Positions 6,557-58,900 of a stretch of 64,000 nucleotides of DNA are shown piece by piece. The notes beneath the pieces are model-generated. The model was not told the origin of the DNA. It did no database searches and saw only the letters and a program-made list of their open reading frames with translations. The first letter of the stretch is position 1, and every line of letters starts with the position of its first letter. The stretch is from Candidatus Woesearchaeota archaeon (GTDB taxonomy: Archaea; Nanobdellota; Nanobdellia; Woesearchaeales; JAHWIC01): contig JAHWIK010000015.1 in the NCBI GenBank assembly GCA_019322485.1, forward strand, positions 23,216 through 87,215, given 5' to 3'. Both the position numbers and the translations under genes were made by a program.

Positions 6557-7807
6557 TTATAGGAGTCTTATCTGCTTAACCTTTTCTTTTATGTATGGCT
6601 CTTTTATTAATTTTTTAACCAGGTCTTCTGGCTTTGTGAATTCTCTCTTCACCTTTGCAAAGACCTTTTTGCCTTTTGTGAATGTGTTCTTGTGCTTTGC
6701 TTTGAATCTTTTAACATGGAATTTCTGCTTTAATGCAGGCCCTTCGTGGAGCTTGATATTTGGCAGAGGTTTTTTATCGCAGATAAAGAAAATCGTTGCT
6801 TTTAATTCCTTATCCCAATGCCAGCCTTTTTCTAATATCTTGAAATCATTTCTTAGCAGTTTATCTGCCATATATTCAAAGGATTTTACGAGTTTTGCTC
6901 CTGCGATGTCTTCTTTTCTTCTTATTGTTTTGATGTCTAAGGCAATTAATTTCTTGTTTTTTGCTTTCTTTTTTAGGTCATCGGTTGTCAATACCTTTTC
7001 CTTGAAGAGCTCTTTTGACGGTTTTTTTAGGAAATTCTTGCAAGCCAATCTGAAATTATCGAATTTTTCCTTGCTAAGGGCTGCTGCAGCATTCCTGTCA
7101 TGCTGTACAGGGTCTATTAAGATTAATGGTGAATAGGCCTTTGATTTGTTTAGCTCCTGCAGCACATCCTTTCCTTTGTAGTATTTCTTTATGTCAATTA
7201 TTACCTTATCAGGCCATTTTGCTGCATTCCTTGCTAGTTTTAGGAACGAGCCGTAGTGGGTTGTTAGAACCTCGCAGATATAACCTGAGAATCCTCTTAT
7301 GTAGGATTCTGCACCATAGGCATTATTTGCTTTGCAGAATTGTTTTGTCAGCCTTATCTCATCTTTTAAGGCTTTATTTGTGTTGGCTGCAACCCATTTT
7401 GCATGCAATGGGCTTACATCAGTTATATTAACTGCCTGCTTGGCATCCTTTATATCGAGGATAGGGACTATCTCAAAGGTAAAGTTTCCTTTTTTTAGCT
7501 GAAAATAATCCCTGCTACCATGCAATTTTGTAATTCTTGGGAAAATTTTTTTTAATTTCTTCTCCAGGATACCGGATAACTGGTCGCTTTTGTCTTTATA
7601 CTTCGAATATTTGAAGCAGACAAATATATCTGCATCATTTGCACGCTTTAACCAGGTTCCTTTTGCACCAGAACCGCCCAGGATTACTTTAGCCTCTTTT
7701 ACCTTCTTCTTTAATGCTGAAAGAACAGAATAAATCTTTCCAGAAACCTCTGTTTTTAGCTCTTCATCTGGCTTTATTTCCTCTAAAACCTCTTTTAGTA
7801 AATTCAT
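6557..7807 (-). CDS. cca: archaeal class I CCA-adding tRNA nucleotidyltransferase
   Basis: Motif 'GGSGAKGTWLKRANDADIFV' (GS..KGT......DIDIF-like) and ~416 aa length, typical of the archaeal CCA enzyme. Confidence 0.75.
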   Translation of the reverse strand: MNLLKEVLEEIKPDEELKTEVSGKIYSVLSALKKKVKEAKVILGGSGAKGTWLKRANDADIFVCFKYSKYKDKSDQLSGILEKKLKKIFPRITKLHGSRDYFQLKKGNFTFEIVPILDIKDAKQAVNITDVSPLHAKWVAANTNKALKDEIRLTKQFCKANNAYGAESYIRGFSGYICEVLTTHYGSFLKLARNAAKWPDKVIIDIKKYYKGKDVLQELNKSKAYSPLILIDPVQHDRNAAAALSKEKFDNFRLACKNFLKKPSKELFKEKVLTTDDLKKKAKNKKLIALDIKTIRRKEDIAGAKLVKSFEYMADKLLRNDFKILEKGWHWDKELKATIFFICDKKPLPNIKLHEGPALKQKFHVKRFKAKHKNTFTKGKKVFAKVKREFTKPEDLVKKLIKEPYIKEKVKQIRLL

Positions 7808-13294: not shown

Positions 13295-13341
13295 GCTTAG
13301 AAATCAAAGATTTCTGGCTCATTGAAATTCGGTGAATTTCA

Positions 13342-36923: not shown

Positions 36924-38305
36924 GCTGGAAATTAATCACATTAAAACAGTATCCGATGTTCTCGAGATGGTGGATACATGAAGCGTTTCTCCACGATATG
37001 AAAGATACTTTAGGTATGAATTTTAAAATGTACAAATCGCTCTATAGCGGGACTTATGCTGATAGTGATGAGGTTGAAAAGTTAAGGTCTATGTTAATAT
37101 CTAAACTTGAAAAAGATATTGATTCAATTAGGAAATTATGTGAGAATTGGAAACATGATTGTGATGAGCTTATTAGATTTACAAAAGAATTAGAAAAATC
37201 GGACTTCTCAAAAAACTCTGATGAGGAATTAGTTAATTTATCAGAGAATTGCATTAAAAAATTAAGAAGAAGCGCTTCATATATTTATCTGTCAGTTGTT
37301 TTGGATGAATATTTTCAGAATTGGCTGAATAAAATACTTGAAGCTAAGGTTCAGGACCAGAATGAGAGGACAAAATACTTCCAAATTCTTACATCTCCAA
37401 CAAAAAATACTAAATTAATTGACGCTAAGAAGGTATTAATTGAGATTTCTAAAGTTGTTAAAGAGAAAGGTCTTGAGGGAGCAGAGGACTTAATCAAAGA
37501 TTATGTATCTAAATTTAAATGGCTTGGATATGATACTGGAATTGGAAGTGATTTAACTATAGAACAAACAAAGGATAAGATTTCTAATATTCTTGAGCAA
37601 AAACAGCACGACTCTGATGTTAAAAATAGGGATGAGGTCTTGTCTGAGTTGGATCTCAATGAAAAAGATAAAGAATTACTTGACTTGATGGACGAACTTA
37701 TTTTCCTAAGGACTTATAGGGCTGAAAGCAATATGGTTGCAGGAGCTGATATAAGGCCTATTCTTGAAGAACTTGCAAAAAGAGCCAATACAAATTATGA
37801 TAATCTAGTTCAATTAACCATTGATGAAATAAAAGACTCAATAAAGTCAAAAAAAGTAGACTTGAAGAAGATTGAGGAGAGAAAGAATAAGTATGGCTTG
37901 TTAATGGTCGATGGAAAGAATACAATCTACAGTGGAGATGAAGTGGATAAAGTAGAGGAAAAGGTTGAAGTTCCTGAAGGATTGACAGAGTTAAAAGGAT
38001 TAGTAGCACACCATGGAAATAAGAGGGGCCATGTTAAGATTGTTTTGAGGCATAAAGACTTTGATAAGATTGAATTTGGAGATATTTTGGTAACAAAGAT
38101 GACTAATCCTGATTTTATAGTTGTTTTAGAACAGTGTTCTGGAATAATTACAGACATTGGAGGGATAACCTCTCATGCAGCGATTGTTGCACGAGAACTA
38201 AACAAGCCATGCATTACAGGAACTCAATATGCTACAAAAGTCTTGAAAGATGGTGACTTAGTTGAGCTTGATACAGATAAAGGCATTGTAAAGATAATAA
38301 AATGA
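36920..38305 (+). CDS. PEP-utilising-enzyme mobile (phosphohistidine swivel) domain protein with a ~340-aa helical N-terminal region of unknown function
   Basis: C-terminal 'GIITDIGGITSHAAIVARELNKPCITGT' is the PpsA/PPDK/rifampin-phosphotransferase His-domain signature. There is no ATP-grasp or PEP-binding TIM-barrel domain. Start and stop overlap ispG and ispDF by 4 nt each. Confidence 0.6.
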   Translation: MSWKLITLKQYPMFSRWWIHEAFLHDMKDTLGMNFKMYKSLYSGTYADSDEVEKLRSMLISKLEKDIDSIRKLCENWKHDCDELIRFTKELEKSDFSKNSDEELVNLSENCIKKLRRSASYIYLSVVLDEYFQNWLNKILEAKVQDQNERTKYFQILTSPTKNTKLIDAKKVLIEISKVVKEKGLEGAEDLIKDYVSKFKWLGYDTGIGSDLTIEQTKDKISNILEQKQHDSDVKNRDEVLSELDLNEKDKELLDLMDELIFLRTYRAESNMVAGADIRPILEELAKRANTNYDNLVQLTIDEIKDSIKSKKVDLKKIEERKNKYGLLMVDGKNTIYSGDEVDKVEEKVEVPEGLTELKGLVAHHGNKRGHVKIVLRHKDFDKIEFGDILVTKMTNPDFIVVLEQCSGIITDIGGITSHAAIVARELNKPCITGTQYATKVLKDGDLVELDTDKGIVKIIK

Positions 38306-39453
38306 ACATAGCAATCATAACAGCAGCTGGAAAAGGAACAAGGATGAATGAAAAAGTCAATAAAATATTGTTATCTTTAGTCGATAAATCAATAATTGAA
38401 GAAACAATCGAGGTTTTTGAGGCGTGTAAAGATATTGATGAGATAATTATTGTTGGAAACAGCGATGATATTGAATCATTAAACAAAATCAATGAAAAAA
38501 ATAATTATAAAAAAATTAAAAAAATCATTGAAGGCGGAGAACAACGGCAGGATTCAGTGTTTAATGGAATAAAATCCATTGAAAATGCGAGTAATGATGA
38601 TATTTTATTGATTCATAATGGTGCAAACCCCCTTGTAGACGAGAAAACGATTCTTGAATGTATTAAAGAAGCAAAGGAGCATGGGGCAGCTGTTGCTGCA
38701 ATGCCTGCAAAAGATACAATAAAACAGGTTGAGAATGGTTTTGTTGCTAAAACATTGGATAGAAAGCAGCTCTGGCAGATGCAGACACCGCAAACAATCC
38801 AGTTTGGGCTTGCGAAAGAGGCTTTTGAAAAGGCATTTGCTGATAATTTCTATGGAACTGATGATGTTGGGCTTGTAGAAAGGCTTGGAAAAAAGGTTAA
38901 GATTGTTGAGTGCAATACTGAGAACGTAAAAATCACAACAAAGAATGATTTAGAACAAGCAAGACTCTTGCTTAATGCTTCTGTTGTTGGAATCGGACAG
39001 GATTCCCACAAATTTACCGACGAGAAAAAGGATTTAGTTTTGGGTGGTGTAGTAATTCCAAATGAGCAGGGCTTAGAAGCAAACTCTGATGGTGATGTCA
39101 TCCTGCATGCCTTGTTTAATGCTTTAAGCCAGGCAGCTGGAGAAAAATCATTGGGAAATTATGCAGATTCAATGTGTGAGAATGGAATAAAAGACAGCAG
39201 AGAGTATCTAAGAGTGATTTTAGACATAATCAACAAGAAAAATTACAAGATAAATAATGTTGGCTTTATGATAGAAGCAAAAAAGCCAAGGCTAGGGGCT
39301 AATGAAGACAGAATAAAAGAGAATATTGCAAATTTATTGGGAATAACTAAAGATAAAGTTGGAATAACAGCAACCTCAGGAGAGGAATTAACTCCATTTG
39401 GCCAGGGCAAGGCAATACAGGTATTTTCAGTTGCAAGCTTAACAAGAAAATAA
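38302..39453 (+). CDS. ispDF: bifunctional IspD/IspF (MEP cytidylyltransferase / MEcPP synthase)
   Basis: N-terminal 'MNIAIITAAGKGTRM' (IspD); C-terminal 'GIGQDSHKFTD' and 'SDGDVILHALFNALSQAAG' (IspF metal/CDP-binding motifs). Confidence 0.9.
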   Translation: MNIAIITAAGKGTRMNEKVNKILLSLVDKSIIEETIEVFEACKDIDEIIIVGNSDDIESLNKINEKNNYKKIKKIIEGGEQRQDSVFNGIKSIENASNDDILLIHNGANPLVDEKTILECIKEAKEHGAAVAAMPAKDTIKQVENGFVAKTLDRKQLWQMQTPQTIQFGLAKEAFEKAFADNFYGTDDVGLVERLGKKVKIVECNTENVKITTKNDLEQARLLLNASVVGIGQDSHKFTDEKKDLVLGGVVIPNEQGLEANSDGDVILHALFNALSQAAGEKSLGNYADSMCENGIKDSREYLRVILDIINKKNYKINNVGFMIEAKKPRLGANEDRIKENIANLLGITKDKVGITATSGEELTPFGQGKAIQVFSVASLTRK

Positions 39454-39474
39454 TGAAAATCAAAGATTTTCAGT

Positions 39475-40344
39475 ATGTCAAAAACCAAGGTTTTTAACAT
39501 GATCCAGCTAAAAGCACACGCAAAGATAAACCTGACCTTAGATGTACTTGCAAGGCTGGATGACGGCTATCATCGGATAGAATCTATAAAACAGCAGGTT
39601 GGTTTGCACGATAAAATCTCATTAGGGCCATTGGATGATATAAAGGTAATCTGCAGCCATCCTAACATAACCACAAAAGAAAATCTTGTCTTTAAAACAG
39701 CATTGTTGCTAAAAAATGAATTTAATGTAGCAGAGGGAGCGAAGATAACAATAGAAAAAAATATTCCATTAGCTGCTGGCTTGGCTGGAGGCTCATCAGA
39801 CGCAGCAGCAACCCTGGTAGGATTAAACAAGCTTTGGAAACTTGAGCTTGATGAGCAGGAACTGACAAAATTAGCTGCAGAGATTGGAATGGATGTTCCT
39901 TTTTCTGTTGTTGGCGGTTCTTGTTTTGCAGAGGGCAAAGGCACTAAACTAAGCAGGATAGAGCTGCCTGAGATGCATGTGCTGTTAATCAACCCTGGTT
40001 TTGAAGTCTCTACAAGAACAGCTTACCAAAGCCTTGACTTGTCAAGAACAGGAAAGGCAATGGCAACAAAGAAACTATTGGAAGTAAGGAACATGGGTGT
40101 GAGAGAAATATCAAAGGTCATGCATAATGACTTTGAAGCTGTGGTGCTGGGGAAGCATTCTATTCTGAAAGAGATAAAGGGCAAATTAATGGAGAATAAT
40201 GCCTTGAATGCAATAGTATCTGGCTCAGGGCCAACTGTTTTTGGCTTGTTTGAGGATGAATCAACTATAAGCAAGGCTTACGAATCTCTTAAAGAAACTT
40301 ATCCATTTGTATTCATGACAAAAACAGTAGCGAGGAAAGAATGA
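39475..40344 (+). CDS. ispE: 4-diphosphocytidyl-2-C-methyl-D-erythritol kinase (GHMP kinase)
   Basis: 'AHAKINLTLDV' and GHMP motif 'PLAAGLAGGSSDAAATLVGLNKLW'. Confidence 0.85.
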   Translation: MSKTKVFNMIQLKAHAKINLTLDVLARLDDGYHRIESIKQQVGLHDKISLGPLDDIKVICSHPNITTKENLVFKTALLLKNEFNVAEGAKITIEKNIPLAAGLAGGSSDAAATLVGLNKLWKLELDEQELTKLAAEIGMDVPFSVVGGSCFAEGKGTKLSRIELPEMHVLLINPGFEVSTRTAYQSLDLSRTGKAMATKKLLEVRNMGVREISKVMHNDFEAVVLGKHSILKEIKGKLMENNALNAIVSGSGPTVFGLFEDESTISKAYESLKETYPFVFMTKTVARKE

Positions 40345-41153
40345 GAATTAAAAAAGCAAAGCACTCTGGATTTTGTTTTGGTGTTAAGAGGGCAGTAGAG
40401 TCAGCGCTGGGCACAGAGGGGGAAGTAAAGACATTAGGCCCATTAATACATAATCCTCAGTTTATAGCAGAGCTTGAGAAAAAGGGAATAAAATCTGTTG
40501 ATTCTGTCGATGAGGTTGAAAAAGGCTCTTTGATAATAAGGGCGCATGGTGTCCCGGATTCTGTTATAGAAAAGGCCAGGGGAAAAGGGCTTAATGTAAC
40601 TGATTTAACATGTCCTTTTGTCAGGAAGGTGCATGATTATGCTAAGGAATTCTACAAACAAGGCTATAGTGTGGTTGTGGTTGGAGAGAAAAACCATCCT
40701 GAGGTTGTAGGAATAATTGGCAACATTGATGGTATTGTTGTGGGCAATGCAGATGATGCAAGGAAACTTGGCAGGTTCGAAAAGATTGGAGTGGTTGCAC
40801 AAACAACACAATCACTTGAGAACTTTAACAATGTTGTTGATGAGCTGAAAAAGCATACAGATGAGTTAAAGGTACATAATACCATATGCTCTGAAACAGA
40901 TTCAAGGCAGAAACACGCTATTGAGCTGGCAAAAGAGGTTGACTTGATGATAGTTATTGGGGGGAGAAACTCTGGAAATACCAGAAGGCTTGCCCAGCTT
41001 TGCTCTAAATTAACTGAAACAAAGCATATTGAGTCTGAGGATGAGTTAAAGGAGGGGTGGTTTGCAGGCAAGGGTTGTGTTGGGATAACAGCTGGCGCTT
41101 CAACACCGGACAGCACAATCAAGAAGATTGAGGATAGAATCAGGGAGATATGA
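40341..41153 (+). CDS. ispH: 4-hydroxy-3-methylbut-2-enyl diphosphate reductase (LytB/IspH)
   Basis: 'HSGFCFGVKRAVE', 'LTCPFVRKVH', 'ICSETDSRQ' and 'VIGGRNSGNTRRL' LytB motifs. Confidence 0.85.
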   Translation: MRIKKAKHSGFCFGVKRAVESALGTEGEVKTLGPLIHNPQFIAELEKKGIKSVDSVDEVEKGSLIIRAHGVPDSVIEKARGKGLNVTDLTCPFVRKVHDYAKEFYKQGYSVVVVGEKNHPEVVGIIGNIDGIVVGNADDARKLGRFEKIGVVAQTTQSLENFNNVVDELKKHTDELKVHNTICSETDSRQKHAIELAKEVDLMIVIGGRNSGNTRRLAQLCSKLTETKHIESEDELKEGWFAGKGCVGITAGASTPDSTIKKIEDRIREI

Positions 41154-41157
41154 GATT

Positions 41158-42246
41158 ATGGAATTCATACAAGCAGTAGGGCAATACAAGGGAATAGTCA
41201 ATAAGACTTTAAGCACGTTCTTTGATAATCATATCAATAAAACACAGGATGGCTTTCTAAAATTTAATTATTCTACACTTAGGGATTATGTTTTGCGGGA
41301 CGGCAAGAGATTAAGGCCAATCACACTGATAATGGCTTACAAGTCAATAACTGATAATGATGAGCAGAAGATTTACATGCCTTCTTTGAGTATGGAACTG
41401 TTCCATGCTTCCTCATTAATACATGATGATATAATGGATGAGGATGATTTAAGGAGGGGAAAAGAGAGCATGCATACCCTGTTTAACCAGTGGTTTGTTG
41501 ATAATCACGGCCAGGCAGGCTATAATGGGCCTATATTTAACCAGTTATCTACTAAGTTTGGGGTTTCTATGGCAATACTGCAGGGAAATATACTGATTGC
41601 TTTAGGTGAGTCCTGCTTGTCAGGCTCCTCATTTGCCCCGGAACAGATAAAGGCTGCTTTAATGGTGTGCAATAACACAAACAAGGTAGTTAATGAAGGC
41701 CAGATACAGGACATTGTTCTGGAGACAAAGAGGGAGTTTACTGAAAATGATTATTTGAGTATGATTGCTAAGAAAACAGGCAAATTATTCAGCACATCTC
41801 TTGAGATAGGTGCAGTATTTGCAGGTGCAACAGATTCTCAGAGAAAAGCGCTTGATAATTATGCATTATCTGCAGCAACAACATTCCAGATACAGGACGA
41901 TATAATGGACATAAGCCCTGATATGAAAAAGGGGCATGAGGTTGGCTCTGATATAAAGCAGGGAAAAAGAACCTTGCTTGTTATGAAGGCCCTGGAAAAA
42001 GGGGATGAAGGCCAAAAAAAGGTTTTGTTTGATGCTCTTGGCAATGAGAAAGCAACACCAGAAGAAATAGAGATTGCTATCGATGTTATGCACGCTACAG
42101 GGGCAGTTGATTATGCAAAGAATCTTGCAGCTGATATGATTAAGAAAGGAAAGGATGCGCTTAAGGAAGCAGACCCTGCTTTATCTTCTGATGGATTGAA
42201 GTTCTTTAATGATTTAGCAGATTATATGGTAAATAGAAATGTCTAG
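41158..42246 (+). CDS. idsA: trans-polyprenyl diphosphate synthase (probable GGPP synthase); start moved to the Met after the ispH stop
   Basis: FARM 'LIHDDIMDEDDLRRGKES' and SARM 'FQIQDDIMD'; last gene of the MEP cluster. Confidence 0.8.
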   Translation: MEFIQAVGQYKGIVNKTLSTFFDNHINKTQDGFLKFNYSTLRDYVLRDGKRLRPITLIMAYKSITDNDEQKIYMPSLSMELFHASSLIHDDIMDEDDLRRGKESMHTLFNQWFVDNHGQAGYNGPIFNQLSTKFGVSMAILQGNILIALGESCLSGSSFAPEQIKAALMVCNNTNKVVNEGQIQDIVLETKREFTENDYLSMIAKKTGKLFSTSLEIGAVFAGATDSQRKALDNYALSAATTFQIQDDIMDISPDMKKGHEVGSDIKQGKRTLLVMKALEKGDEGQKKVLFDALGNEKATPEEIEIAIDVMHATGAVDYAKNLAADMIKKGKDALKEADPALSSDGLKFFNDLADYMVNRNV

Positions 42247-43382: not shown

Positions 43383-43554
43383 GAAATAATCAATAGCCCC
43401 GGGCAGATTCGAACTGCCGTCCCCGGCTGTTTTCGATGGAAATCGCAAAACTGTTGGAAATCTTTGATTTCCACCACCAAAAGCAGGGATGATTTGTCGG
43501 AAATCGGAGATTTCTGAGCAAATTGAAAATCTCCGATTTTCAATTGACCACTAC
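43383..43554 (-). tRNA. tRNA-like gene (acceptor AGCCCCG/CGGGGCU-A, canonical D-loop start, canonical T-arm GGCAG-UUCGAAU-CUGCC) interrupted by ~100 nt of structured insert; isotype unresolved (5' end resembles archaeal tRNA-Gln)
   Basis: Hand reverse-complement gives a 7-bp acceptor stem, 'UAGUGUAGUGGUC' D-region and a perfect T-arm. The 99 nt in between contain long hairpins with recurring GAAAUC/GAUUUC motifs. A contiguous anticodon arm could not be placed. Confidence 0.4.
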
Positions 43555-43644
43555 ACTACGGGGCTCTAAAGCTAAGAAACTCCTCGCGAATATATAAAAG
43601 TTGTGATAAACTAAATCAAAAATTATTTATACCAGTGTTTTAGA

Positions 43645-47541: not shown

Positions 47542-49299
47542 ATGAAGTATCAAAATCTGGTTAATGTTTATCAAAAACTTGAAGCAACAACAAAGCGCTT
47601 AGAGAAGACCCATATTATCTCTGAGTTTTTGAAAACAATTGAAGCAGAGGATTTACCTAAGGTTATTCTGCTGCTGCAGGGAAAGCTATTTCCAAATTGG
47701 GATCCAAGCAAGATTGGTGTTGCTTCCAGGCTGATTTTGAAGGCTATTGCAATTTCTACTGGAATTGATACGAGCAAGGTTGAGAATAGCTGGAAGCGAA
47801 GCGGTGACCTGGGAAAAACTGCTGAAGAGCTTGTTGTGCTCAAGAAACAGGCAACACTCTTTTCAAAAGAGTTGGATGTAAAGAAGGTCTTTGATAACCT
47901 GAGAAAACTTGCAACCTTGGAAGGAGCAGGCACTGTTGAAAGAAAGATTCAATTAATTGCTGAGTTGCTGACAAGTGCAGAGCCGTTAGAAGCAAGATAT
48001 ATAGTACGGACTGTTTTAGGTGAGCTAAGGGTTGGTGTTGGAGAAGGAAGCTTGCGTGATGCAGTTGTTTGGGCATTCTTTACAGATGAGATAGGCTTTA
48101 CATATAATACTAAAGAAAATAATATTGAGATTGAGAACAGGGATGATTATAACAAGTATGCAAATGCTGTTCAGCAGGCTTACGATTTGACAAATGATTT
48201 TTCTTCTGTTGCTAAGGTTGCTAAGACTGCTGGCATTGATGGCTTGTTGAATATGGAGCTTGAGGTTAACAGGCCTGTTAAGGTTATGCTTGCCATAAAG
48301 GTAAAGGATATTGGTGATGGCTTTGAAAGGGTTGGAAAGCCAGCTGCTGTTGAGTTTAAGTATGACGGCTTTAGGATGCAGATACATAAAGCGCATGATA
48401 AGATAACTATATTTACCCGGCGTTTAGAGGATGTCACAAGACAGTTTCCTGAGGTTGTTAAGTATGTTAAGGATAATGTTAAGGGCAAGGAATTTATTAT
48501 TGATTCTGAGGCTGTTGGTTACGACCCTAAAACAGATAAGTATCTGCCTTTCCAGAGTGTTTCCCAGAGAATAAAAAGAAAGTATGATATTGAGAAGATG
48601 GCTAAGGATTTCCCTGTTGAGCTTAATGTTTTTGATATAATCTATTTTGAGGGAAAGAATCTGATAAAAGAAGGATTTGGCAGAAGACGAGAGGTTCTCT
48701 GGAAGATTGTAAACCAGGTTCCTAAGAGGATAGTTCTTGCAAAGAATCTGATAACCTCTAGTGAGGATGAGGTTAGGGCTTTTTATAATGAATCTTTAGA
48801 GGCTGGCAATGAGGGGATTATGTTTAAGACTCTTGATGCTCCCTACAAGCCTGGTGCTCGTGTTGGCCATATGGTAAAGTTAAAGCCTACAATGGAAACA
48901 CTTGATTTAGTCATAGTTGGTGCTGACTGGGGCGAGGGTAAAAGAGCTTCATGGCTTTCAAGCTTTACAATTGCATGCATTGATGATAATGGAAATTTTC
49001 TTGAGGTTGGAAAGGTTGGCACTGGTATAAAGGAAAAAGAAACTGAAGAAGGGGTAACGTTTAAGCAGCTTACTGAATTGCTTAAGCCTTTGATAATTGC
49101 AGAGAAAGGCAAAGAGGTTAAGATACAGCCGAAGATTGTTATTGAGATAACCTATGAAGAGATACAGAAAAGTCCTACTTATGCTTCTGGTTATGCTTTA
49201 AGGTTTCCTAGGCTGCTTAATATTCGTGAAGACCGTTCTGCTGAGGATATAAGCACTTTAGAGATGGTTGAGGAGTTTTATCTTGGACAGAAGAAATAA
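47542..49299 (+). CDS. lig: ATP-dependent DNA ligase (archaeal Lig)
   Basis: Adenylation motif I 'EFKYDGFRMQIH' (KxDGxR); OB-fold and DNA-binding domain lengths consistent (585 aa). Confidence 0.85.
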   Translation: MKYQNLVNVYQKLEATTKRLEKTHIISEFLKTIEAEDLPKVILLLQGKLFPNWDPSKIGVASRLILKAIAISTGIDTSKVENSWKRSGDLGKTAEELVVLKKQATLFSKELDVKKVFDNLRKLATLEGAGTVERKIQLIAELLTSAEPLEARYIVRTVLGELRVGVGEGSLRDAVVWAFFTDEIGFTYNTKENNIEIENRDDYNKYANAVQQAYDLTNDFSSVAKVAKTAGIDGLLNMELEVNRPVKVMLAIKVKDIGDGFERVGKPAAVEFKYDGFRMQIHKAHDKITIFTRRLEDVTRQFPEVVKYVKDNVKGKEFIIDSEAVGYDPKTDKYLPFQSVSQRIKRKYDIEKMAKDFPVELNVFDIIYFEGKNLIKEGFGRRREVLWKIVNQVPKRIVLAKNLITSSEDEVRAFYNESLEAGNEGIMFKTLDAPYKPGARVGHMVKLKPTMETLDLVIVGADWGEGKRASWLSSFTIACIDDNGNFLEVGKVGTGIKEKETEEGVTFKQLTELLKPLIIAEKGKEVKIQPKIVIEITYEEIQKSPTYASGYALRFPRLLNIREDRSAEDISTLEMVEEFYLGQKK

Positions 49300-50619: not shown

Positions 50620-52584
50620 ATGGTACCAGATAATGGAGAAAAGGATACTGGTAACTCTACAGAAGGACCTCCAGAGGACACCCAAGGAGAACCTACAGAG
50701 AGCCCTACAGAAGCCTCTACAGAAGAACCTGAAGAAGAAAAGCTTCTAGTAATAAGACCTTTTGATGAGGTTAAGGCGGATTTGATAAGGCTATCTGAAT
50801 CAACGGATGATGCTGAGAAGGAAGTGATTCGTGGTAGGTTACATGAGGACTTCGATTCTGTCTATCCTATGTTAAAGGGACTGCCTCGCGGGGAAGATGC
50901 TACACTTCTTTCCTACCCTGGGCAAGAGAATATGGTTTCTGCTGTGGATATGGTTGCTAAAAAACCCAAAAAGAAATATGTAGATATGGCAAGCCAACAA
51001 CTAGGCAGGCTTTATGAATCGTATCAGGCAGAGGTTCTTCAAGCGAAATGGAATACTGAAGCTGAGAAACTGCAGTCAGCAGTAGCAAACCCACAAGAGA
51101 CAATAACCCATCTAAGAACTTCCCTTTCTTCTCATCTGTCAGGGCTTCATAGAGATGTTCGTGCTTGTACCATCGACCTATTAATAAAATATAGGGACTT
51201 TAAAATAGGGGAAGATCCTGCTCGGGATGAGGAGAGGATCACTGATAGTTTGCTTGACCCTGAAGATGGGTATTACATCTTAGGTTATACCATAAGGATT
51301 TTTGAGGATGTAAGCGCTAGATATAATGATGTCCGGCTTAAGCAACTTGCACTGAATCCAAGTATTGCTGATACAGCCCGTACCTTATTGCAGATAGTTA
51401 ATGAGGCTCGAAAGATAACTGGGGAGGCTGGCCTTAGTTTAGAAATCTCGTGCAGGGAAGAACTTGAAGCTATGCTGGAGAAAGGAGAGCCTTCTCCTGC
51501 TGATTCAGAGAGGATACTTGCCACTAATAACGAAATACTAATACAACTTGGTAATTTCTTGCTTGATGCTGTTCAAGGCACAAGTTTAGAAGGTAAGTTG
51601 GATTATAAGAAACAAGACTTGCCTGAGAGAGAGCAGGCAGATAAACCAAAAGCGCCACGCAGGGAATATAAAAGGTCTGCTCCGAGCAGGGTATTTTCAA
51701 ATGAATCTCACTCTGAACTTGCAGGTCTTATTTGCACGCTTTCTGCTTCAGAGAATAACGAGGAGTGGGCAGAGATGAGGGGGTGTATAAAAGGAATGCT
51801 GAGTGAGGCGTATAGAGCAATAGGGATAACAGAGGCACATGTGAACGAAATACGTTTGACCTATCCTAAAGAGGAGGAGTTATGTTCTTTGGCTGATAAA
51901 ATTCCTGAACAAAAGGAGACAACTTATGAATTAACTGCTAAGGTGAGAGCTCTTTATGAAGCTGGCACTGCTTACACTGCCCTGGCTTTTTGGAAGAGAT
52001 GGGTGGCTTCATTAAAGGAAGAGTTGGCAACTGAATCTATGGTATATGATACCTGGAAAGGTGCTTTATCAACTTATATGAAGCATTGCGCACCTGAATC
52101 TAGGGACGAAGTTAATAAACGTTTGATAGCGCGTAGAAGGTCAGTCATGGGAGAAGAAGAAAGCCAGAAGTATAGTGATGAGGAAATACTTTTAGCAGTA
52201 AATTCCGAGCTGGATGACAGAGGTAGGCCTGATTTAATGTTAGATCATTCTGCAATATTTTTTGAGGTTGCTATAGAAGATTACGCTCGTTTAGCAAATG
52301 ATGTATGTAAGAAATGGAGGGGCACAACTGAGTTTATTGGTGCTATGCTTAGGTTTTGTGGCGGTGTTTCTCCTTTGGCAGGCTCGTTAGGTATAACTGC
52401 AGATGATTCAGACAGCACCAAACTTAAGGAGTCGTATGAAAAAGGGCTGGGCTATGTTATGGAAGATGAGCATGACCCAAAAGATGTTGCTAATACTTTA
52501 GGTACTTCAAAGAATGTATTGAAGCAGTACGGGGAAATTTATATTAAAATTCTTGAGAAGGTTGCTGAAGAGAAACAGAAATAA
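50620..52584 (+). CDS. hypothetical acidic protein (654 aa) with an N-terminal low-complexity T/E/P region
   Basis: Long ORF, no recognisable domain; its stop codon directly abuts a convergent tRNA gene. Confidence 0.4.
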   Translation: MVPDNGEKDTGNSTEGPPEDTQGEPTESPTEASTEEPEEEKLLVIRPFDEVKADLIRLSESTDDAEKEVIRGRLHEDFDSVYPMLKGLPRGEDATLLSYPGQENMVSAVDMVAKKPKKKYVDMASQQLGRLYESYQAEVLQAKWNTEAEKLQSAVANPQETITHLRTSLSSHLSGLHRDVRACTIDLLIKYRDFKIGEDPARDEERITDSLLDPEDGYYILGYTIRIFEDVSARYNDVRLKQLALNPSIADTARTLLQIVNEARKITGEAGLSLEISCREELEAMLEKGEPSPADSERILATNNEILIQLGNFLLDAVQGTSLEGKLDYKKQDLPEREQADKPKAPRREYKRSAPSRVFSNESHSELAGLICTLSASENNEEWAEMRGCIKGMLSEAYRAIGITEAHVNEIRLTYPKEEELCSLADKIPEQKETTYELTAKVRALYEAGTAYTALAFWKRWVASLKEELATESMVYDTWKGALSTYMKHCAPESRDEVNKRLIARRRSVMGEEESQKYSDEEILLAVNSELDDRGRPDLMLDHSAIFFEVAIEDYARLANDVCKKWRGTTEFIGAMLRFCGGVSPLAGSLGITADDSDSTKLKESYEKGLGYVMEDEHDPKDVANTLGTSKNVLKQYGEIYIKILEKVAEEKQK

Positions 52585-52700
52585 TGCCCCTGCCGAGAAT
52601 CGAACTCGGGTCTTCAGGTTTTTGCAAAATTGCCGCAACCTAATATTCTTTTTGGCTATGCCGAACCTTGTTCAGCAAGTATCCACTATACTACAGGGGC
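52585..52700 (-). tRNA. intron-containing tRNA (116 nt; acceptor GCCCCUG/CAGGGGC-A, canonical T-arm CCGAG-UUCGAUU-CUCGG); anticodon not confidently assigned
   Basis: Hand fold gives a 7-bp acceptor, a D-arm with GG in the loop, an intact T-arm and ~40 extra nt containing a BHB-like hairpin (AGGUUGC...GCAAAAACCU). Confidence 0.5.
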
Positions 52701-52712
52701 AATAATTTGTTT

Positions 52713-54976: not shown

Positions 54977-57130
54977 TTATACCTTTTCTGTTACAACGTA
55001 CGTCTTGTAAGTATACTGCCTTGGTGGTATTGGTTGAGGTGCGGGTTGAGGTGTTGGTTCTGGTGCAGGCTGTGGTGCTGGTGCAGGCGCTGGTGTTGGC
55101 TCAGGAGTAGGCTCCGGAGCTGGTTCTGGTGCAGGCTGTGGTGCTGGTGCAGGTGTTATTGGTGTTGGTTGCGGTGCGCTTGTAACAACCATTTGAGGAA
55201 GGGTTTGCCGTTCTATTACACTAACAATCCATCTGACACTTACAGCAGCTTTGCCATCAGAGATAATAACTCTCACCTCTTTTTTTCCAGGAGAAGTAAA
55301 CCAACGTCTATGCAGCGGGCCCCCTTTGTAGCGCGCAAGTGGACCAAATATCCATTCATAGCTTAGTGCATCACCATCAGGGTCCTGGGCAGATGCTTGG
55401 AACAAAACAGAGCTGTTGACATAAACACCAAATTGACCCACCATTGGGCTGACATTCCATACAACAGGCTCCCTGTTTGTGTTGTGCACAAGGACTACTG
55501 CATCTTCGCTTGAATTTAAGTCACCATCTGAAGCTGTAAAGGTGACTGTATATTGTTTTGCTTCCAGCCTTCTTGTCTCATCATGGCTGGGGGTCCAGCT
55601 AAACCCGTCTGCATCAAAACTTGAGCCGGCAGGCACATCTTCTGCAGATGTGACAATCCTGTCATTATCTGGGTCATAGGAATTAACATTAAAGTGTAAA
55701 ACTGCTCCTTCATCTACATCCTGCTGAGGTATTTCCTCAAGAACAGGCGGCCTGTTAACATTATTTACAACAACTGTTACGTTCTTCTCAACAGAGGTTT
55801 TGCTGTCAGATAATTTAATAAATACTGTGTAGGTGCCTGCATCATCATAACCAGTCCCTTTCACAGCTTTGTTCATCCAGCCGCTATATCTATAAGATAC
55901 CTTATCACCATCAAGGTCATATCCATTAGGCTCTAATACAAGGGTTTCCCCTTCATTCATGACTATTGTTCCCATATCTTCAAGCACAGGGGCCCTATTC
56001 TCTTCCATGACCCTAATCTTTATGGTTTTGGTTGTGCTAAATTCATTGCTTTCAGCCAGGAATGTTATAGTTTGAGTTCTGCTGAGTAAGTGGAAATTGT
56101 CAAGGAAATATGTAAAGAGGTTTGTTTTTTTAACAAAATCCTTGCTTGGTGTCCATTTAAAGACATTGCCATCAAATCCTGAATTTTCCGGCGCTTCAAG
56201 AACTGTGATTATTATATCATCGCCATCTGGGTCGCTGGCATTTACTACTAAGTTTACTTCCTCACCTTCTCTTACAGTTATATCATGGAGTGGTTCAATT
56301 ATCGGTTCGCGGTCTACATCATAAACTACAAGGTCTACCTTTTTTGAATATTCAAAATCCCTGTCCCTTATTGTTATTGTTACCATGTATTCACCATCAT
56401 CCTCATAGGTGGTTTGCCAGAAATTTTCATTGCCTATTGGCTCTGATATCTCATATTCAAGATGGTAGGCTCCTAAATCAGGAAGCTCGATACTTACTAT
56501 GTCTGTTTCATCTACTTCAATATAGCTTATGTTATCCAGGAGTTGTGCCCTGTCAACATCCTCAATATCCATAGTCCATTCCTGGGATGTTTTAAGCGTG
56601 CTGTCAGATACAACTACTTTTATGGTATGCGTTCCCTGGTCAAAATAGTCTGCGTAATACTCAATCTCTTGCTCCCTGCCTAAGAATTCATCATCAATGA
56701 ACCATTTGTAGGTTAGTTCATCTTCGTTTATGTCAGAGGCCTCAGCCCTGAAGTAGAGGCTTTCACCCTCTTCAATTGACAAAGAGGTATCTTCTGGGTA
56801 GAAATCATATATTTCAGGCTGTTCTTCTTTTTTGTTAACAACGATTATGACCTCTTCTTCTGTGATAAGGTCGCCGTCAGAAGCAGTGACTGAGGCAATA
56901 TAATTTCCAGCATCTCCATAGGTAGTTTGCCATTCTCCCTCGCTGTTTAAGGGGTATGTGTAGGAATATTCTAATGTATCACCGTCAGGATCATCAAAAG
57001 AAGGTTTTATGGAGACAAGGTCAGTCTCATTAACTATCATATTAGTTAGAGAATAAGTTATTGGCAATACAATAATTAGAACTAATACTAAAATTAACCA
57101 TTTCTTATCCATTAACCCAACCCCCAACAT
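54977..57130 (-). CDS. secreted multi-domain surface protein with repeated ~90-aa DPDGD-containing Ig/PKD-like modules and a Pro-rich (PAPEPTPE) C-terminal stalk
   Basis: Signal anchor 'WLILVLVLIIVLPITYS'; repeated '..DPDGD.L.Y.Y......W.T.YGD.G.Y...V..SDG' modules; C-terminal 'PAPAPQPAPEPAPEPTPEPTPAPAP'. Confidence 0.5.
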   Translation of the reverse strand: MLGVGLMDKKWLILVLVLIIVLPITYSLTNMIVNETDLVSIKPSFDDPDGDTLEYSYTYPLNSEGEWQTTYGDAGNYIASVTASDGDLITEEEVIIVVNKKEEQPEIYDFYPEDTSLSIEEGESLYFRAEASDINEDELTYKWFIDDEFLGREQEIEYYADYFDQGTHTIKVVVSDSTLKTSQEWTMDIEDVDRAQLLDNISYIEVDETDIVSIELPDLGAYHLEYEISEPIGNENFWQTTYEDDGEYMVTITIRDRDFEYSKKVDLVVYDVDREPIIEPLHDITVREGEEVNLVVNASDPDGDDIIITVLEAPENSGFDGNVFKWTPSKDFVKKTNLFTYFLDNFHLLSRTQTITFLAESNEFSTTKTIKIRVMEENRAPVLEDMGTIVMNEGETLVLEPNGYDLDGDKVSYRYSGWMNKAVKGTGYDDAGTYTVFIKLSDSKTSVEKNVTVVVNNVNRPPVLEEIPQQDVDEGAVLHFNVNSYDPDNDRIVTSAEDVPAGSSFDADGFSWTPSHDETRRLEAKQYTVTFTASDGDLNSSEDAVVLVHNTNREPVVWNVSPMVGQFGVYVNSSVLFQASAQDPDGDALSYEWIFGPLARYKGGPLHRRWFTSPGKKEVRVIISDGKAAVSVRWIVSVIERQTLPQMVVTSAPQPTPITPAPAPQPAPEPAPEPTPEPTPAPAPAPQPAPEPTPQPAPQPIPPRQYTYKTYVVTEKV

Positions 57131-57156
57131 TAAAAATTAAAAAAATAAAAAAGAAA

Positions 57157-58272
57157 TTATCTTTGTTCTATTCCTAGGAATACAGGTGCCCTGTTAACGT
57201 TTTCAACAGCCACGTTTATCTGCTGGCTTACTGAAAGGTCACCGTCGCTTACTGTTATTGTTACATCATAGCTGCCTGAATCATCATAGGTTGTATCCCA
57301 CGCAAAGACATTCCCTTCCTGCTCAAATTTGTCGCTATCTGCTGCAAAGGATAGGCCGTCTCCATCTAGGTCAGAGGCTTCTACAACAATTATTACAGGC
57401 TCATTTTCATTAACTATGATGTTGTCTAGTTCTTCCATTTCAGGCGGCCTGTTAACATTTTCAACTGTAATAGCCCATATCTGTGATGTCTCAAGTGTGC
57501 CGTCGGTTATTGATAACTTAATAGTGTGTGAACCAGCACTGTCATAGCCTAGGTCAAATGCGAATGAGGTGTCGGTTGATACTTCCTCGCCATCAATCTT
57601 CCATTCATAATCCAGGTAATCACCATTAAGGTCTGATGCTGATACGCTGAATTCTATGATGTTATCCTCTGCTATGATTAATTCTGTATCTGCTGGATTA
57701 GCAAACTCAATTATTGGGGCCTCTTCTTTTCTGTTTACAATTATTAATACATCCTGTGAAGCAGAAAGGTCTCCATCAGATGCGGTTATTGTTACTGTGT
57801 ATTCACCCTCATCTCCATAAGTAGTTTGCCAATCACCTATGCCATCAAGAGGTGATGTGAATGCGTAAGTTAAAGGGTCTCCATCAGGGTCAGTTGCGTC
57901 AGGTTCTAAGCTGACAAGCTCTGTTTCTTCTACTATGATAACAACTGCTTGCTGGTCAACAACGTCTACATCTTCTAATACTACTTCCTCCTCTTCCTCA
58001 ATAATCTCAATGACCTCTTCAATGTCTTCCTCGACCTCTTCTTCCTCTTCCTCATCTCTTCTGAAGATGTCAAGAGGGCTTGTTCTTTCTTCCTCCTCTT
58101 CCACTTCTTCTTCCTCTTCTGCAACCTCCTCATCTTCTTCACCCTCAACAACAATATCATCCATGCTTATTGTAGAAACATCAGATTTGCCATATATATC
58201 TTCATAGATTTGACATCCACTCAATAAGAACAAGACTATCACACCAATTACAAGTAAATATTTCTTAAACAT
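57157..58272 (-). CDS. secreted protein with a poly-Glu acidic region and three DPDGD Ig/PKD-like modules; paralog of the upstream gene
   Basis: Signal 'LLVIGVIVLFLLSGC'; 'EEDEEVAEEEEEVEEEEE' run; modules alignable to those in 54977..57130. Confidence 0.5.
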   Translation of the reverse strand: MFKKYLLVIGVIVLFLLSGCQIYEDIYGKSDVSTISMDDIVVEGEEDEEVAEEEEEVEEEEERTSPLDIFRRDEEEEEEVEEDIEEVIEIIEEEEEVVLEDVDVVDQQAVVIIVEETELVSLEPDATDPDGDPLTYAFTSPLDGIGDWQTTYGDEGEYTVTITASDGDLSASQDVLIIVNRKEEAPIIEFANPADTELIIAEDNIIEFSVSASDLNGDYLDYEWKIDGEEVSTDTSFAFDLGYDSAGSHTIKLSITDGTLETSQIWAITVENVNRPPEMEELDNIIVNENEPVIIVVEASDLDGDGLSFAADSDKFEQEGNVFAWDTTYDDSGSYDVTITVSDGDLSVSQQINVAVENVNRAPVFLGIEQR

Positions 58273-58572: not shown

Positions 58573-58596
58573 GAAAAAAATGGGCCCGCCGTGACT
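58573..58596. repeat. direct repeat copy 2 'TGAAAAAAATGGGCCCGCCGTGAC'
   Basis: See copy 1; a partial inverted copy (cacgggccca) lies at 58704-58713. Confidence 0.6.
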
Positions 58597-58728
58597 TTCT
58601 AGCCACAAGTTTTAGAACTTGATGACATTTGAACACGGGACCACTCGATGTCTGTATTTCGCTTGCGCGAAATGTATCAGTCGAGCGCGCCACCAGACTA
58701 TGCCACGGGCCCACTATCATAACAAAAA

Positions 58729-58856
58729 CGCCTCTGGGCAGATTTTCCCGCCATAAATCTTTCGGATTTAATGCGTCTCGAACTGCCGACCTTGTGATTT
58801 CTTCACCAAAGAATTGGTGTAACAGTCACACGCTCTACCTGCTAAGCTACAGAGGC
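58729..58856 (-). tRNA. tRNA-Asn (anticodon GUU) with two introns: a 21-nt intron in the anticodon loop (after nt 37) and a ~34-nt intron in the T-loop (after nt 58)
   Basis: Hand fold: GCCUCUG-UA-GCUU-AGCAGGUA-GAGC-G-UGUGA-CUGUUA[CACCAAUUCUUUGGUGAAGAA]A-UCACA-AGGUC-GGCAG-UUCGA[GACGCAUUAAAUCCGAAAGAUUUAUGGCGGGAAA]AU-CUGCC-CAGAGGC-G. All stems pair, GG sits in the D-loop, U33 and A37 are present, and the discriminator is G73 as expected for Asn. Confidence 0.6.
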
Positions 58857-58900
58857 ATTAAGTTCAAGAATTGATACTATATTTATATAATTTTCTATGG

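What the first reader, a model, noticed from the sequence alone, without database searches (positions are those of the whole stretch)
58729..58856. tRNA-Asn(GUU) with two introns, one at the canonical 37/38 site and one inside the T-loop
The gene folds into a perfect cloverleaf only after removing a 21-nt hairpin insert after position 37 and a ~34-nt insert between T-loop positions 58 and 59. T-loop introns are rare non-canonical archaeal introns. They point to a relaxed-specificity splicing endonuclease, as in Thermoproteales and some DPANN/ARMAN lineages. Both introns carry AAAUC/GAUUU hairpins similar to those in the insert of the tRNA-like gene at 43383-43554.
Basis: seen in the sequence. 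Interest (0 to 1): 0.55.

Follow-up and report, generated by a model that had tools for sequence, protein, structure and literature searches.

The report
Two-intron tRNA-Asn gene in Woesearchaeota
This is a real asparagine tRNA gene of a tiny DPANN archaeon, interrupted by two short introns, one after the anticodon and one in the T-loop at the known 59/60 hotspot (not 58/59); it is a known kind of gene that standard tRNA finders miss.

Summary
On the minus strand of 58729-58856, removing a 21-nt and a 34-nt insert gives a perfect 73-nt tRNA-Asn(GUU). ARAGORN's default mode and Rfam find no tRNA anywhere in the window.

One detail is wrong. The T-loop intron lies at 59/60, not 58/59, so the mature loop is UUCGAGU. 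Three things show this: bulge-helix-bulge (BHB) geometry fits only that register, all 11 orthologues have G59, and seven further T-loop introns (window tRNA-Ile and six in related DPANN loci) use the same register.

The window comes from a Woesearchaeota (DPANN) genome. A close metagenomic relative (L159) has the same two introns, identical exons, and four intron changes, all at unpaired positions. Other orthologues carry no intron, only 37/38, D-loop only, D-loop plus 37/38, or four inserts, so introns turn over quickly. All four tRNA genes in the window have two introns each.

The 59/60 site and multi-intron tRNAs are already documented for ARMAN-2 and Thermoproteales, and tRNA gene disruption has been noted for DPANN including a Woesearchaeota genome. 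This is a new member of a known kind. The splicing endonuclease is not in the window and no RNA data exist, so splicing is inferred.

The parts
58820..58856 (-). tRNA-Asn exon 1 (positions 1-37): GCCUCUGUAGCUUAGCAGGUAGAGCGUGUGACUGUUA
   Evidence: identical in L159; stem positions covary among orthologues
58799..58819 (-). Intron 1, 21 nt, at 37/38: CACCAAUUCUUUGGUGAAGAA. Relaxed hBHBh': outer helix is the anticodon stem; H is C32-G, U33-A, G34xA, U35.G; bulges are UA|C and AA|A; h' is ACCAA/UUGGU
   Evidence: the one L159 difference lies in the hairpin loop; L135 has the same GAAGAA|A 3' end
58777..58798 (-). tRNA-Asn exon 2 (positions 38-59): AUCACAAGGUCGGCAGUUCGAG
   Evidence: contiguous with exon 3 in nine orthologous loci, giving UUCGAGU
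58743..58776 (-). Intron 2, 34 nt, at 59/60 in the T-loop: ACGCAUUAAAUCCGAAAGAUUUAUGGCGGGAAAA. hBHBh': outer helix is the T-stem; H is U54-A, U55-A, C56-G, G57xG; bulges are AG|A and AA|U; h' is CGC/GCG followed by the hairpin UAAAUC-CGAAA-GAUUUA
   Evidence: the three L159 differences are all at unpaired positions
58729..58742 (-). tRNA-Asn exon 3 (positions 60-73): UCUGCCCAGAGGCG. The discriminator is G73 and no CCA is encoded
58883..58890 (-). TATA-box-like TTATATAA at -34 to -27, preceded by an A-rich BRE-like stretch
   Evidence: conserved in L159, and most orthologues have a TATA-like element at about the same distance
58724..58728 (-). T5 run directly after the gene, an archaeal terminator-like signal, followed 11 nt later by tRNA-Ile
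58581..58712 (-). Neighbouring tRNA-Ile(GAU) with the same layout: a 25-nt intron at 37/38 (58650-58674) and a 33-nt intron at 59/60 (58595-58627). Its D-stem has an A12xC23 mismatch
6557..7807 (-). Archaeal class I CCA-adding enzyme, needed because these tRNA genes encode no CCA

Best explanation
Window 58729-58856 (minus strand) is a functional tRNA-Asn(GUU) gene of a Woesearchaeota (DPANN) archaeon. It is interrupted by two protein-spliced BHB introns: 21 nt at 37/38 and 34 nt at 59/60.

Shown from sequence: the exon and intron boundaries, the BHB geometry, conservation of the exons, and presence or absence of the introns among orthologues.

Inferred mechanism:
1. The gene is transcribed from a BRE/TATA promoter about 30 nt upstream, possibly together with the adjacent tRNA-Ile.
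2. In the precursor, the anticodon stem and the T-stem each serve as the outer helix of a bulge-helix-bulge motif. Loop nucleotides 32-35 and 54-57 pair with the four intron nucleotides that lie two nucleotides before the 3' splice site.
3. The splicing endonuclease (EndA) cuts after the second nucleotide of each 3-nt bulge.
4. An RtcB-type ligase joins the three exons.
5. The CCA-adding enzyme encoded at 6557-7807 adds CCA.

Intron 2 sequesters U54, U55 and C56. The T-loop/D-loop elbow and the T-loop modifications therefore cannot form until that intron is removed.
For: - Spliced product: a perfect 73-nt cloverleaf with anticodon GUU, accepted by ARAGORN. From sequence, it also has discriminator G73, U33 and A58.
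- BHB motifs fall exactly at the two junctions. The chance of both is about 1e-5.
- Orthologues in 11 related loci differ from the spliced sequence mostly by compensating changes in stems, and all have G59.
- In nine loci exon 2 and exon 3 are contiguous, and in four exon 1 and exon 2 are contiguous. The inserts are therefore dispensable for the mature RNA.
- L159, an independent metagenome contig that is 88.7% identical in the flanks, has both introns at the same sites, 73/73 identical exon positions, and 4/55 intron differences, all unpaired in the BHB model.
- Seven further introns use the same 59/60 register with the T-stem as outer helix: window tRNA-Ile and L159, L129, L002, L004, L048 and L056.
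- Reciprocal control: the L002 59/60 intron splices to UUCGAUU, which is the uninterrupted loop of its window orthologue at 52584-52701.
- A TATA-like element and a T-run flank the gene.
- Literature: a 59/60 intron was cleaved in vitro by ARMAN-2 EndA (PMC3239211), and DPANN EndAs with the L3 loop go with disrupted tRNA genes (PMC5829648).
Against: - There is no RNA evidence, so splicing is inferred.
- No EndA or RtcB gene is in the window or in any fetched locus.
- Both central helices have one mismatch (G34xA, G57xG).
- The explicit BHB conformation is about 10 kcal/mol less stable than the MFE fold, which prefers symmetric 3x3 and 7x7 internal loops. BHB formation would have to be helped by the enzyme.
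- Only 64 kb of the genome is visible, so an intact second tRNA-Asn copy elsewhere cannot be excluded.
Confidence: 0.85

Rival explanations
1. One reading: the T-loop intron lies between 58 and 59 and the mature loop is UUCGAAU.
For: Removing 34 nt in this register also gives a cloverleaf that ARAGORN accepts. DNA alone cannot formally fix a cleavage site.
Against: This register forms no BHB (h .x-, H x..-, h' x-x). All 11 orthologues have G59, including nine with an uninterrupted T-loop. Seven other T-loop introns (window tRNA-Ile and six in relatives) fit 59/60.
Confidence: 0.04
2. It is a decaying pseudogene: a former tRNA-Asn gene disrupted by small palindromic hairpin insertions that are not spliced, with function supplied by another copy elsewhere in the genome.
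For: The AAAUC/GAUUU hairpins behave like a dispersed element: 6 copies against 0.9 expected, two of them outside tRNA genes. The BHB central helices are imperfect, and the MFE fold does not adopt the BHB. The neighbouring Ile and Gln genes have one stem mismatch each.
Against: Exons are 100% conserved against L159 while the introns and flanks diverge, and the intron changes avoid the helices. The promoter-like and terminator-like signals are kept. The inserts sit precisely at BHB-competent registers. All four tRNA genes in the window are interrupted and none is uninterrupted, so they cannot all be pseudogenes.
Confidence: 0.08
3. It is an assembly or sequencing artefact that created spurious insertions.
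For: The source is probably a metagenome-assembled genome.
Against: The same two inserts are present in an independent metagenome contig (L159) with a few substitutions. Analogous introns occur in many independent assemblies.
Confidence: 0.01

Closest known systems
ARMAN-2 (Ca. Micrarchaeum) pre-tRNA-Cys(GCA) with a 59/60 intron and pre-tRNA-Pro(GGG) with 53/54 + 59/60 introns (Fujishima et al. 2011, PMC3239211)
   Same: A DPANN host; a BHB-type intron at exactly 59/60 in the T-loop; multi-intron tRNA genes missed by default tools; the T-stem serves as the outer helix.
   Different: ARMAN-2 uses an epsilon2 three-unit EndA with the L2 loop, and its 59/60 intron in tRNA-Cys is 13 nt and of the hBH type. 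Here the host is a Woesearchaeon, for which the alpha4 + L3 type is reported (PMC5829648), and the intron is 34 nt with both bulges and an inner helix. There is no in vitro cleavage for this lineage.
Multi-intron tRNA genes of Thermoproteales (Sugahara et al. 2008; Fujishima et al. 2010, as cited in PMC4033280 and PMC8450103)
   Same: Up to several BHB introns per gene at non-canonical sites; fast gain and loss; similar introns in different tRNA genes, suggesting intron transposition. Here the Asn and Ile 59/60 introns are about 60% identical with compensating stem changes.
   Different: Those hosts are hyperthermophilic Crenarchaeota with (alpha-beta)2 EndA carrying the L1/CSL loop. Here the genome is a 38% GC DPANN genome from marine or sediment metagenomes.
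Canonical archaeal 37/38 hBHBh' intron (Marck & Grosjean 2003, as cited in PMC8450103)
   Same: Intron 1 has the canonical position and geometry. Intron 2 copies that geometry exactly in the T-arm, where 54-57 play the role of 32-35.
   Different: The central helices have 3 of 4 pairs instead of 4.

Membership tests
Archaeal BHB (EndA-spliced) tRNA intron | Removing the insert restores a canonical cloverleaf tRNA | tested here: met
   ARAGORN calls tRNA-Asn(GUU), 73 nt, only after both inserts are removed
Archaeal BHB (EndA-spliced) tRNA intron | Two 3-nt bulges separated by a 4-bp helix at the exon-intron junctions, with cleavage after the second bulge nucleotide | tested here: met
   Both junctions have 3-nt bulges, a 3/3 outer helix and a 3/3 inner helix. 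The central helix has 3 of 4 pairs in each, so the motif is relaxed rather than strict
Archaeal BHB (EndA-spliced) tRNA intron | Intron-less orthologues show the predicted exon-exon junction | tested here: met
   UUCGAG-UCUGCC is contiguous in L002, L106, L128/L143, L135, L146, L154 and L157, with the same loop in L032 and L061. CUGUUA-AUCAC is contiguous in L128/L143, L146, L154 and L157
Archaeal BHB (EndA-spliced) tRNA intron | The host encodes the splicing endonuclease EndA and an RtcB-type ligase | not testable with these tools
   Neither is in the window (Pfam) nor in 1.7 Mb of fetched loci (tblastn probe). The rest of the genome is not available
Archaeal BHB (EndA-spliced) tRNA intron | The spliced mature RNA and the excised or circular intron are observed | not testable with these tools
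   No transcriptome data
Non-canonical intron at position 59/60 (T-loop hotspot) | Junction between nucleotides 59 and 60, with the T-stem as outer helix and 54-57 in the central helix | tested here: met
   G59 in all orthologues; the 58/59 register fails
Group I self-splicing intron in tRNA (reported in archaea including Woesearchaeota, PMC6125680) | An intron of a few hundred nt with a conserved catalytic core | tested here: not met
   The inserts are 21 and 34 nt. There is no Rfam intron hit at gathering or at E<=10
Split or permuted tRNA gene | Exons at separate loci or in permuted order | tested here: not met
   All three exons are collinear within 128 nt

The most novel reading that the evidence does not exclude
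This Woesearchaeal lineage may carry one of the densest and fastest-changing tRNA intron loads known.
- All four tRNA genes detectable in the 64-kb window have two introns each, 2.0 per gene. The published figures are 0.84 on average for Thermoproteales and 71 introns in 46 genes (about 1.5 per gene) for the record holder (PMC8450103).
- Orthologous tRNA-Asn genes with near-identical exons carry zero, one, two or four introns in different combinations.
- One relative (L129) needs four inserts removed from a single tRNA gene, above the published maximum of three.

If the lineage's EndA is the alpha4 type with the L3 loop, as reported for DPANN, this would be an independent, third route to rampant tRNA gene disruption. 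It would also be a systematic cause of the 'missing tRNAs' in DPANN MAGs.
Probability: 0.45. Interest if true: 0.5.

Novelty: new member of a known kind. Interest (0 to 1): 0.33.

Why it matters
Practical value. Default ARAGORN and Rfam report no tRNA at all in 64 kb that in fact holds at least four tRNA genes. The BHB models of tRNAscan-SE 2.0 were trained on Crenarchaeota, Euryarchaeota and Thaumarchaeota only (PMC8450103). Interrupted genes like these are therefore a likely reason why DPANN genomes appear to lack tRNAs (PMC5829648). That affects completeness estimates and claims that these organisms depend on a host.

Biological value. The set of orthologues with 0, 1, 2 and 4 introns and near-identical exons is a clean natural series for studying intron gain and loss. 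It also allows a test of how an EndA copes with an intron that locks up U54-U55-C56.

The phenomenon itself, BHB introns at 59/60 and multi-intron tRNA genes, is already established.

Tried and rejected
- Default ARAGORN and Rfam, at gathering and at E<=10, found no tRNA or tRNA fragment. They are uninformative for interrupted genes.
- ARAGORN -i places the anticodon-loop intron at 35/36 and calls Tyr(GUA). I rejected this because ARAGORN ignores BHB geometry, orthologues are Asn(GUU), and the BHB fixes 37/38.
- My relaxed BHB filter produces about 0.3% chance candidates and many ARAGORN artefacts at the ends of intact tRNAs. I kept only clusters that could not be called without removing an intron, and inspected those by hand.
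- The look-up of encoding contigs with the DNA ligase found no exact match.
- The EndA search failed: Pfam on 50 ORFs and a tblastn probe with an M. jannaschii EndA sequence recalled from memory gave nothing.
- I considered the L159 tRNA-Ile truncation as an integrated element. The adjacent ORF looks like part of an aldehyde:ferredoxin oxidoreductase (judged by eye from the translation, no integrase), so a chimeric join is more likely. This is unresolved.
- Most metagenome hits to the exon-2 pattern were bacterial tRNA-Asn genes and were discarded.
- A clean BHB for the D-loop inserts of the 43394-43565 and 52584-52701 genes, and for the 31/32 insert of L129, was not found. Only an HBh'-like arrangement fits for tRNA-Gln.

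Full report
**1. What is in the sequence**

The feature is on the minus strand. Read 5'->3', window 58856-58729 is GCCUCUGUAGCUUAGCAGGUAGAGCGUGUGACUGUUA / CACCAAUUCUUUGGUGAAGAA / AUCACAAGGUCGGCAGUUCGAG / ACGCAUUAAAUCCGAAAGAUUUAUGGCGGGAAAA / UCUGCCCAGAGGCG. ARAGORN in default mode and Rfam, both at gathering thresholds and at E<=10, find no tRNA anywhere in the 64-kb window. After the 21-nt and the 34-nt segments are removed, ARAGORN calls a 73-nt tRNA-Asn(GUU) with all four stems intact. Read directly from the sequence, it also has U33, A58 and discriminator G73.

**2. Where the introns are**

I coded the hBHBh' geometry as a 3-bp outer helix, a 4-bp central helix, two 3-nt bulges cut after their second nucleotide, and a 3-bp inner helix. 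I checked this geometry against the canonical 37/38 case and against the rule that nucleotide 32 pairs with the intron base three positions before the 3' splice site.

Scanning the precursor recovers the 21-nt intron exactly at 37/38. There H is C32-G, U33-A, G34xA, U35.G, the bulges are UA|C and AA|A, and h' is ACC/GGU.

The scan puts the 34-nt intron at 59/60, not 58/59. The T-stem is the outer helix, H is U54-A, U55-A, C56-G, G57xG, the bulges are AG|A and AA|U, and h' is CGC/GCG. The two registers remove the same number of bases and differ only in mature position 59, which is G or A.

BHB candidates at my thresholds occur at 0.29% of (position, length) pairs in the window. Two of them landing on the two junctions that restore the cloverleaf has a chance of about 1e-5.

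**3. Comparative test**

The DNA ligase at 47542-49299 places the window in the Woesearchaeota (GTDB Nanoarchaeota). The best genome hit is a Yap Trench MAG at 84% identity. From the 80 syntenic loci and one metagenome pattern scan I recovered 11 orthologous tRNA-Asn genes.

Their mature sequences differ from the window's spliced sequence mostly by compensating changes in stems: 27/43, 5/68, 4/69, 6/67, 7/66, 29/41, 31/39, 49/65 and 50/64. Every one has G59. That settles the 59/60 register.

The intron content of these orthologues varies:

| Loci | Introns in tRNA-Asn |
|---|---|
| L061, L062, L128/L143, L154, L157 | none |
| L032, L135 | 37/38 only |
| L146 | D-loop only |
| L002/L106 | D-loop + 37/38 |
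| window, L159 | 37/38 + 59/60 |
| L129 | four inserts |

L159 is an independent metagenome contig, 88.7% identical over 520 bp of flank. It has the same two introns, 73/73 identical exon positions and 4/55 intron differences. All four differences lie at unpaired positions of the BHB model. This excludes an assembly artefact. It also shows the pattern expected of spliced introns: exons are more constrained than intron helices, which are more constrained than intron loops.

**4. A habit of the lineage**

A SPLITS-style scan (list BHB candidates, splice each in silico, then run ARAGORN -i) finds four tRNA genes in the window. All are on the minus strand and all have two introns:

| Window coordinates | Gene | Introns |
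|---|---|---|
| 58729-58856 | tRNA-Asn(GUU) | 21 nt at 37/38; 34 nt at 59/60 |
| 58581-58712 | tRNA-Ile(GAU) | 25 nt at 37/38; 33 nt at 59/60 |
| 43394-43565 | tRNA-Gln(UUG) | about 51 nt in the D-loop; 48 nt at 37/38 |
| 52584-52701 | tRNA with anticodon GCG (Arg) by my reading | about 32 nt in the D-loop; 13 nt at 37/38 |

In the related loci, further introns use the same 59/60 register: L002 (31 nt), L004 tRNA-Gly (about 70 nt), L048 tRNA-Tyr of an Aenigmarchaeote (35 nt), L056 tRNA-Arg (153 nt) and L129 tRNA-Asn (21 nt, unrelated in sequence to the window's intron).

The L002 gene is the orthologue of the window gene at 52584-52701. It splices to UUCGAUU, which is exactly the window's uninterrupted T-loop. 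This is a reciprocal control.

The Asn and Ile 59/60 introns of the window align at about 60% identity. They have the same architecture and double, compensating changes in the hairpin stem. That fits duplication of an intron between neighbouring genes, as described for Thermoproteales (PMC4033280).

**5. Mechanism**

Shown: exon and intron boundaries, BHB geometry, conservation, and signals around the gene. Those signals are a TTATATAA element at -34 to -27, conserved in L159 with TATA-like elements at a similar distance in most orthologues, and a T5 run after the gene. A class I CCA-adding enzyme is encoded at 6557-7807, in keeping with the absence of an encoded CCA.

Inferred: cleavage by EndA at the two BHBs, ligation by RtcB, and CCA addition. 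Intron 2 pairs with U54-U55-C56. The T-loop/D-loop elbow therefore cannot form before it is removed, and T-loop modification and probably end-processing must follow splicing.

The relaxed central helices (3 of 4 pairs), and the D-loop introns of neighbouring genes that lack an outer helix, agree with a broad-specificity enzyme. For DPANN this is reported to be alpha4-type EndA with the L3 loop (PMC5829648).

Caveats:
- No EndA or RtcB is present in the window or in any fetched sequence.
- The explicit BHB conformation is about 10 kcal/mol above the MFE.
- There is no RNA evidence.

**6. Comparison with what is known**

- Position 59/60 is an established major insertion site. ARMAN-2 pre-tRNA-Cys has a 59/60 intron that its EndA cleaves in vitro, and ARMAN-2 tRNA-Pro has 53/54 + 59/60 introns (PMC3239211).
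- Multi-intron tRNA genes are classic in Thermoproteales (PMC4033280, PMC8450103).
- Kaneta et al. 2018 (PMC5829648) surveyed a Woesearchaeota genome, linked DPANN EndAs carrying L3 to increased tRNA gene disruption, and noted that incomplete tRNA sets imply disrupted genes still to be found.

The finding is therefore a new member of a known kind. It is not a group I intron, because the inserts are too short and there is no Rfam hit. It is not a split or permuted gene either.

**7.

AAATC-N3-6-GATTT occurs 6 times in the window against 0.9 expected, and no shuffle out of 100 reached 6. Three copies are in the tRNA-Gln introns and one is in Asn intron 2. Two lie directly after stop codons at 13301 and 39457. 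Asn intron 1 has no such hairpin. The motif is real, but it is not a shared feature of both Asn introns.

**8. Verdict**

This is a real, well-supported two-intron tRNA-Asn gene. The T-loop junction is corrected to 59/60. The gene is ordinary in kind but typical of a class that annotation under-detects. The most interesting loose end is the intron density and turnover in this lineage, including a probable four-intron tRNA-Asn in L129, which exceeds the published maximum of three.

Noticed in passing
L129 (Ga0209541_10052855), minus strand of the locus, gene starting GCCCCAGTAGCTTAG: This orthologous tRNA-Asn(GUU) needs four inserts removed to give a perfect 73-nt tRNA accepted by ARAGORN: 21 nt in the D-loop, 16 nt at 31/32, 14 nt at 37/38 and 21 nt at 59/60. 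The published maximum is three introns per archaeal tRNA gene (PMC3239211, PMC8450103). I could not resolve a BHB for the 31/32 insert.
   Followed up: partly
window 58581-58712 (-): tRNA-Ile(GAU) lies 16 nt downstream of tRNA-Asn and has the same layout: a 25-nt intron at 37/38 and a 33-nt intron at 59/60. Its D-stem has an A12xC23 mismatch, where the L032 orthologue has A12-U23. Its 59/60 intron is about 60% identical to that of tRNA-Asn, with compensating stem changes.
   Followed up: partly
window 43394-43565 (-): I read this as tRNA-Gln(UUG) with A1-U72. It has an insert of about 51 nt in the D-loop (HBh'-like, no outer helix) and a 48-nt intron at 37/38 with a near-perfect BHB (10-bp inner helix), plus a U29xC41 mismatch. 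The nearest relatives L001 and L054 have only a D-loop intron of about 21 nt. L040 has a homologous 50-nt D-loop intron.
   Followed up: partly
window 52584-52701 (-): A tRNA that I read as Arg(GCG), with a 13-nt BHL-type intron at 37/38 (H 4/4) and a D-loop insert of about 32 nt holding an 8-bp hairpin. ARAGORN -i mislabels it as Pro(AGG). The L002 orthologue (7094-7212) has the same 13-nt intron, no D-loop insert and a 59/60 intron instead.
   Followed up: partly
window 33997-42246 (+): A contiguous bacterial-type MEP/DOXP isoprenoid operon sits in an archaeal genome: Dxs, IspG/GcpE, an ORF with a PEP-utiliser domain, an IspD-IspF fusion, an IspE-like GHMP kinase, IspH/LytB and a polyprenyl synthetase. 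Archaea normally use the mevalonate pathway, and no Dxr hit was seen.
   Followed up: no
window 13301-13313 and 39457-39469 (+); also 43458, 43501, 43527 and 58755: A hairpin family (G/A)AAAUC-AAA-GAUUU(C/U) is enriched, 6 copies against 0.9 expected. Two copies lie directly after stop codons of plus-strand genes and four lie in tRNA introns. It may be a small palindromic element, a terminator or a protein-binding hairpin.
   Followed up: partly
L159 (Ga0209427_10274810), tRNA-Ile next to tRNA-Asn: The gene breaks off inside the T-loop (…CCGTGTTC|CACAATG…) and runs into about 790 nt of GC-rich DNA. By eye, from the translation only, this encodes an aldehyde:ferredoxin-oxidoreductase-like C-terminus. 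It is either a chimeric assembly join or a rearrangement.
   Followed up: partly
window 15432-17414 (-): A 660-aa ORF matches ribosomal protein L10P/P0 only in its first 180 residues, so it is unusually long for P0.
   Followed up: no
window 26013-32063 (-) and 54977-58272 (-): There is a 2016-aa ORF that I did not annotate, and two surface-type proteins with PKD, Big_9 and cadherin-like repeats directly downstream of the tRNA pair.
   Followed up: no
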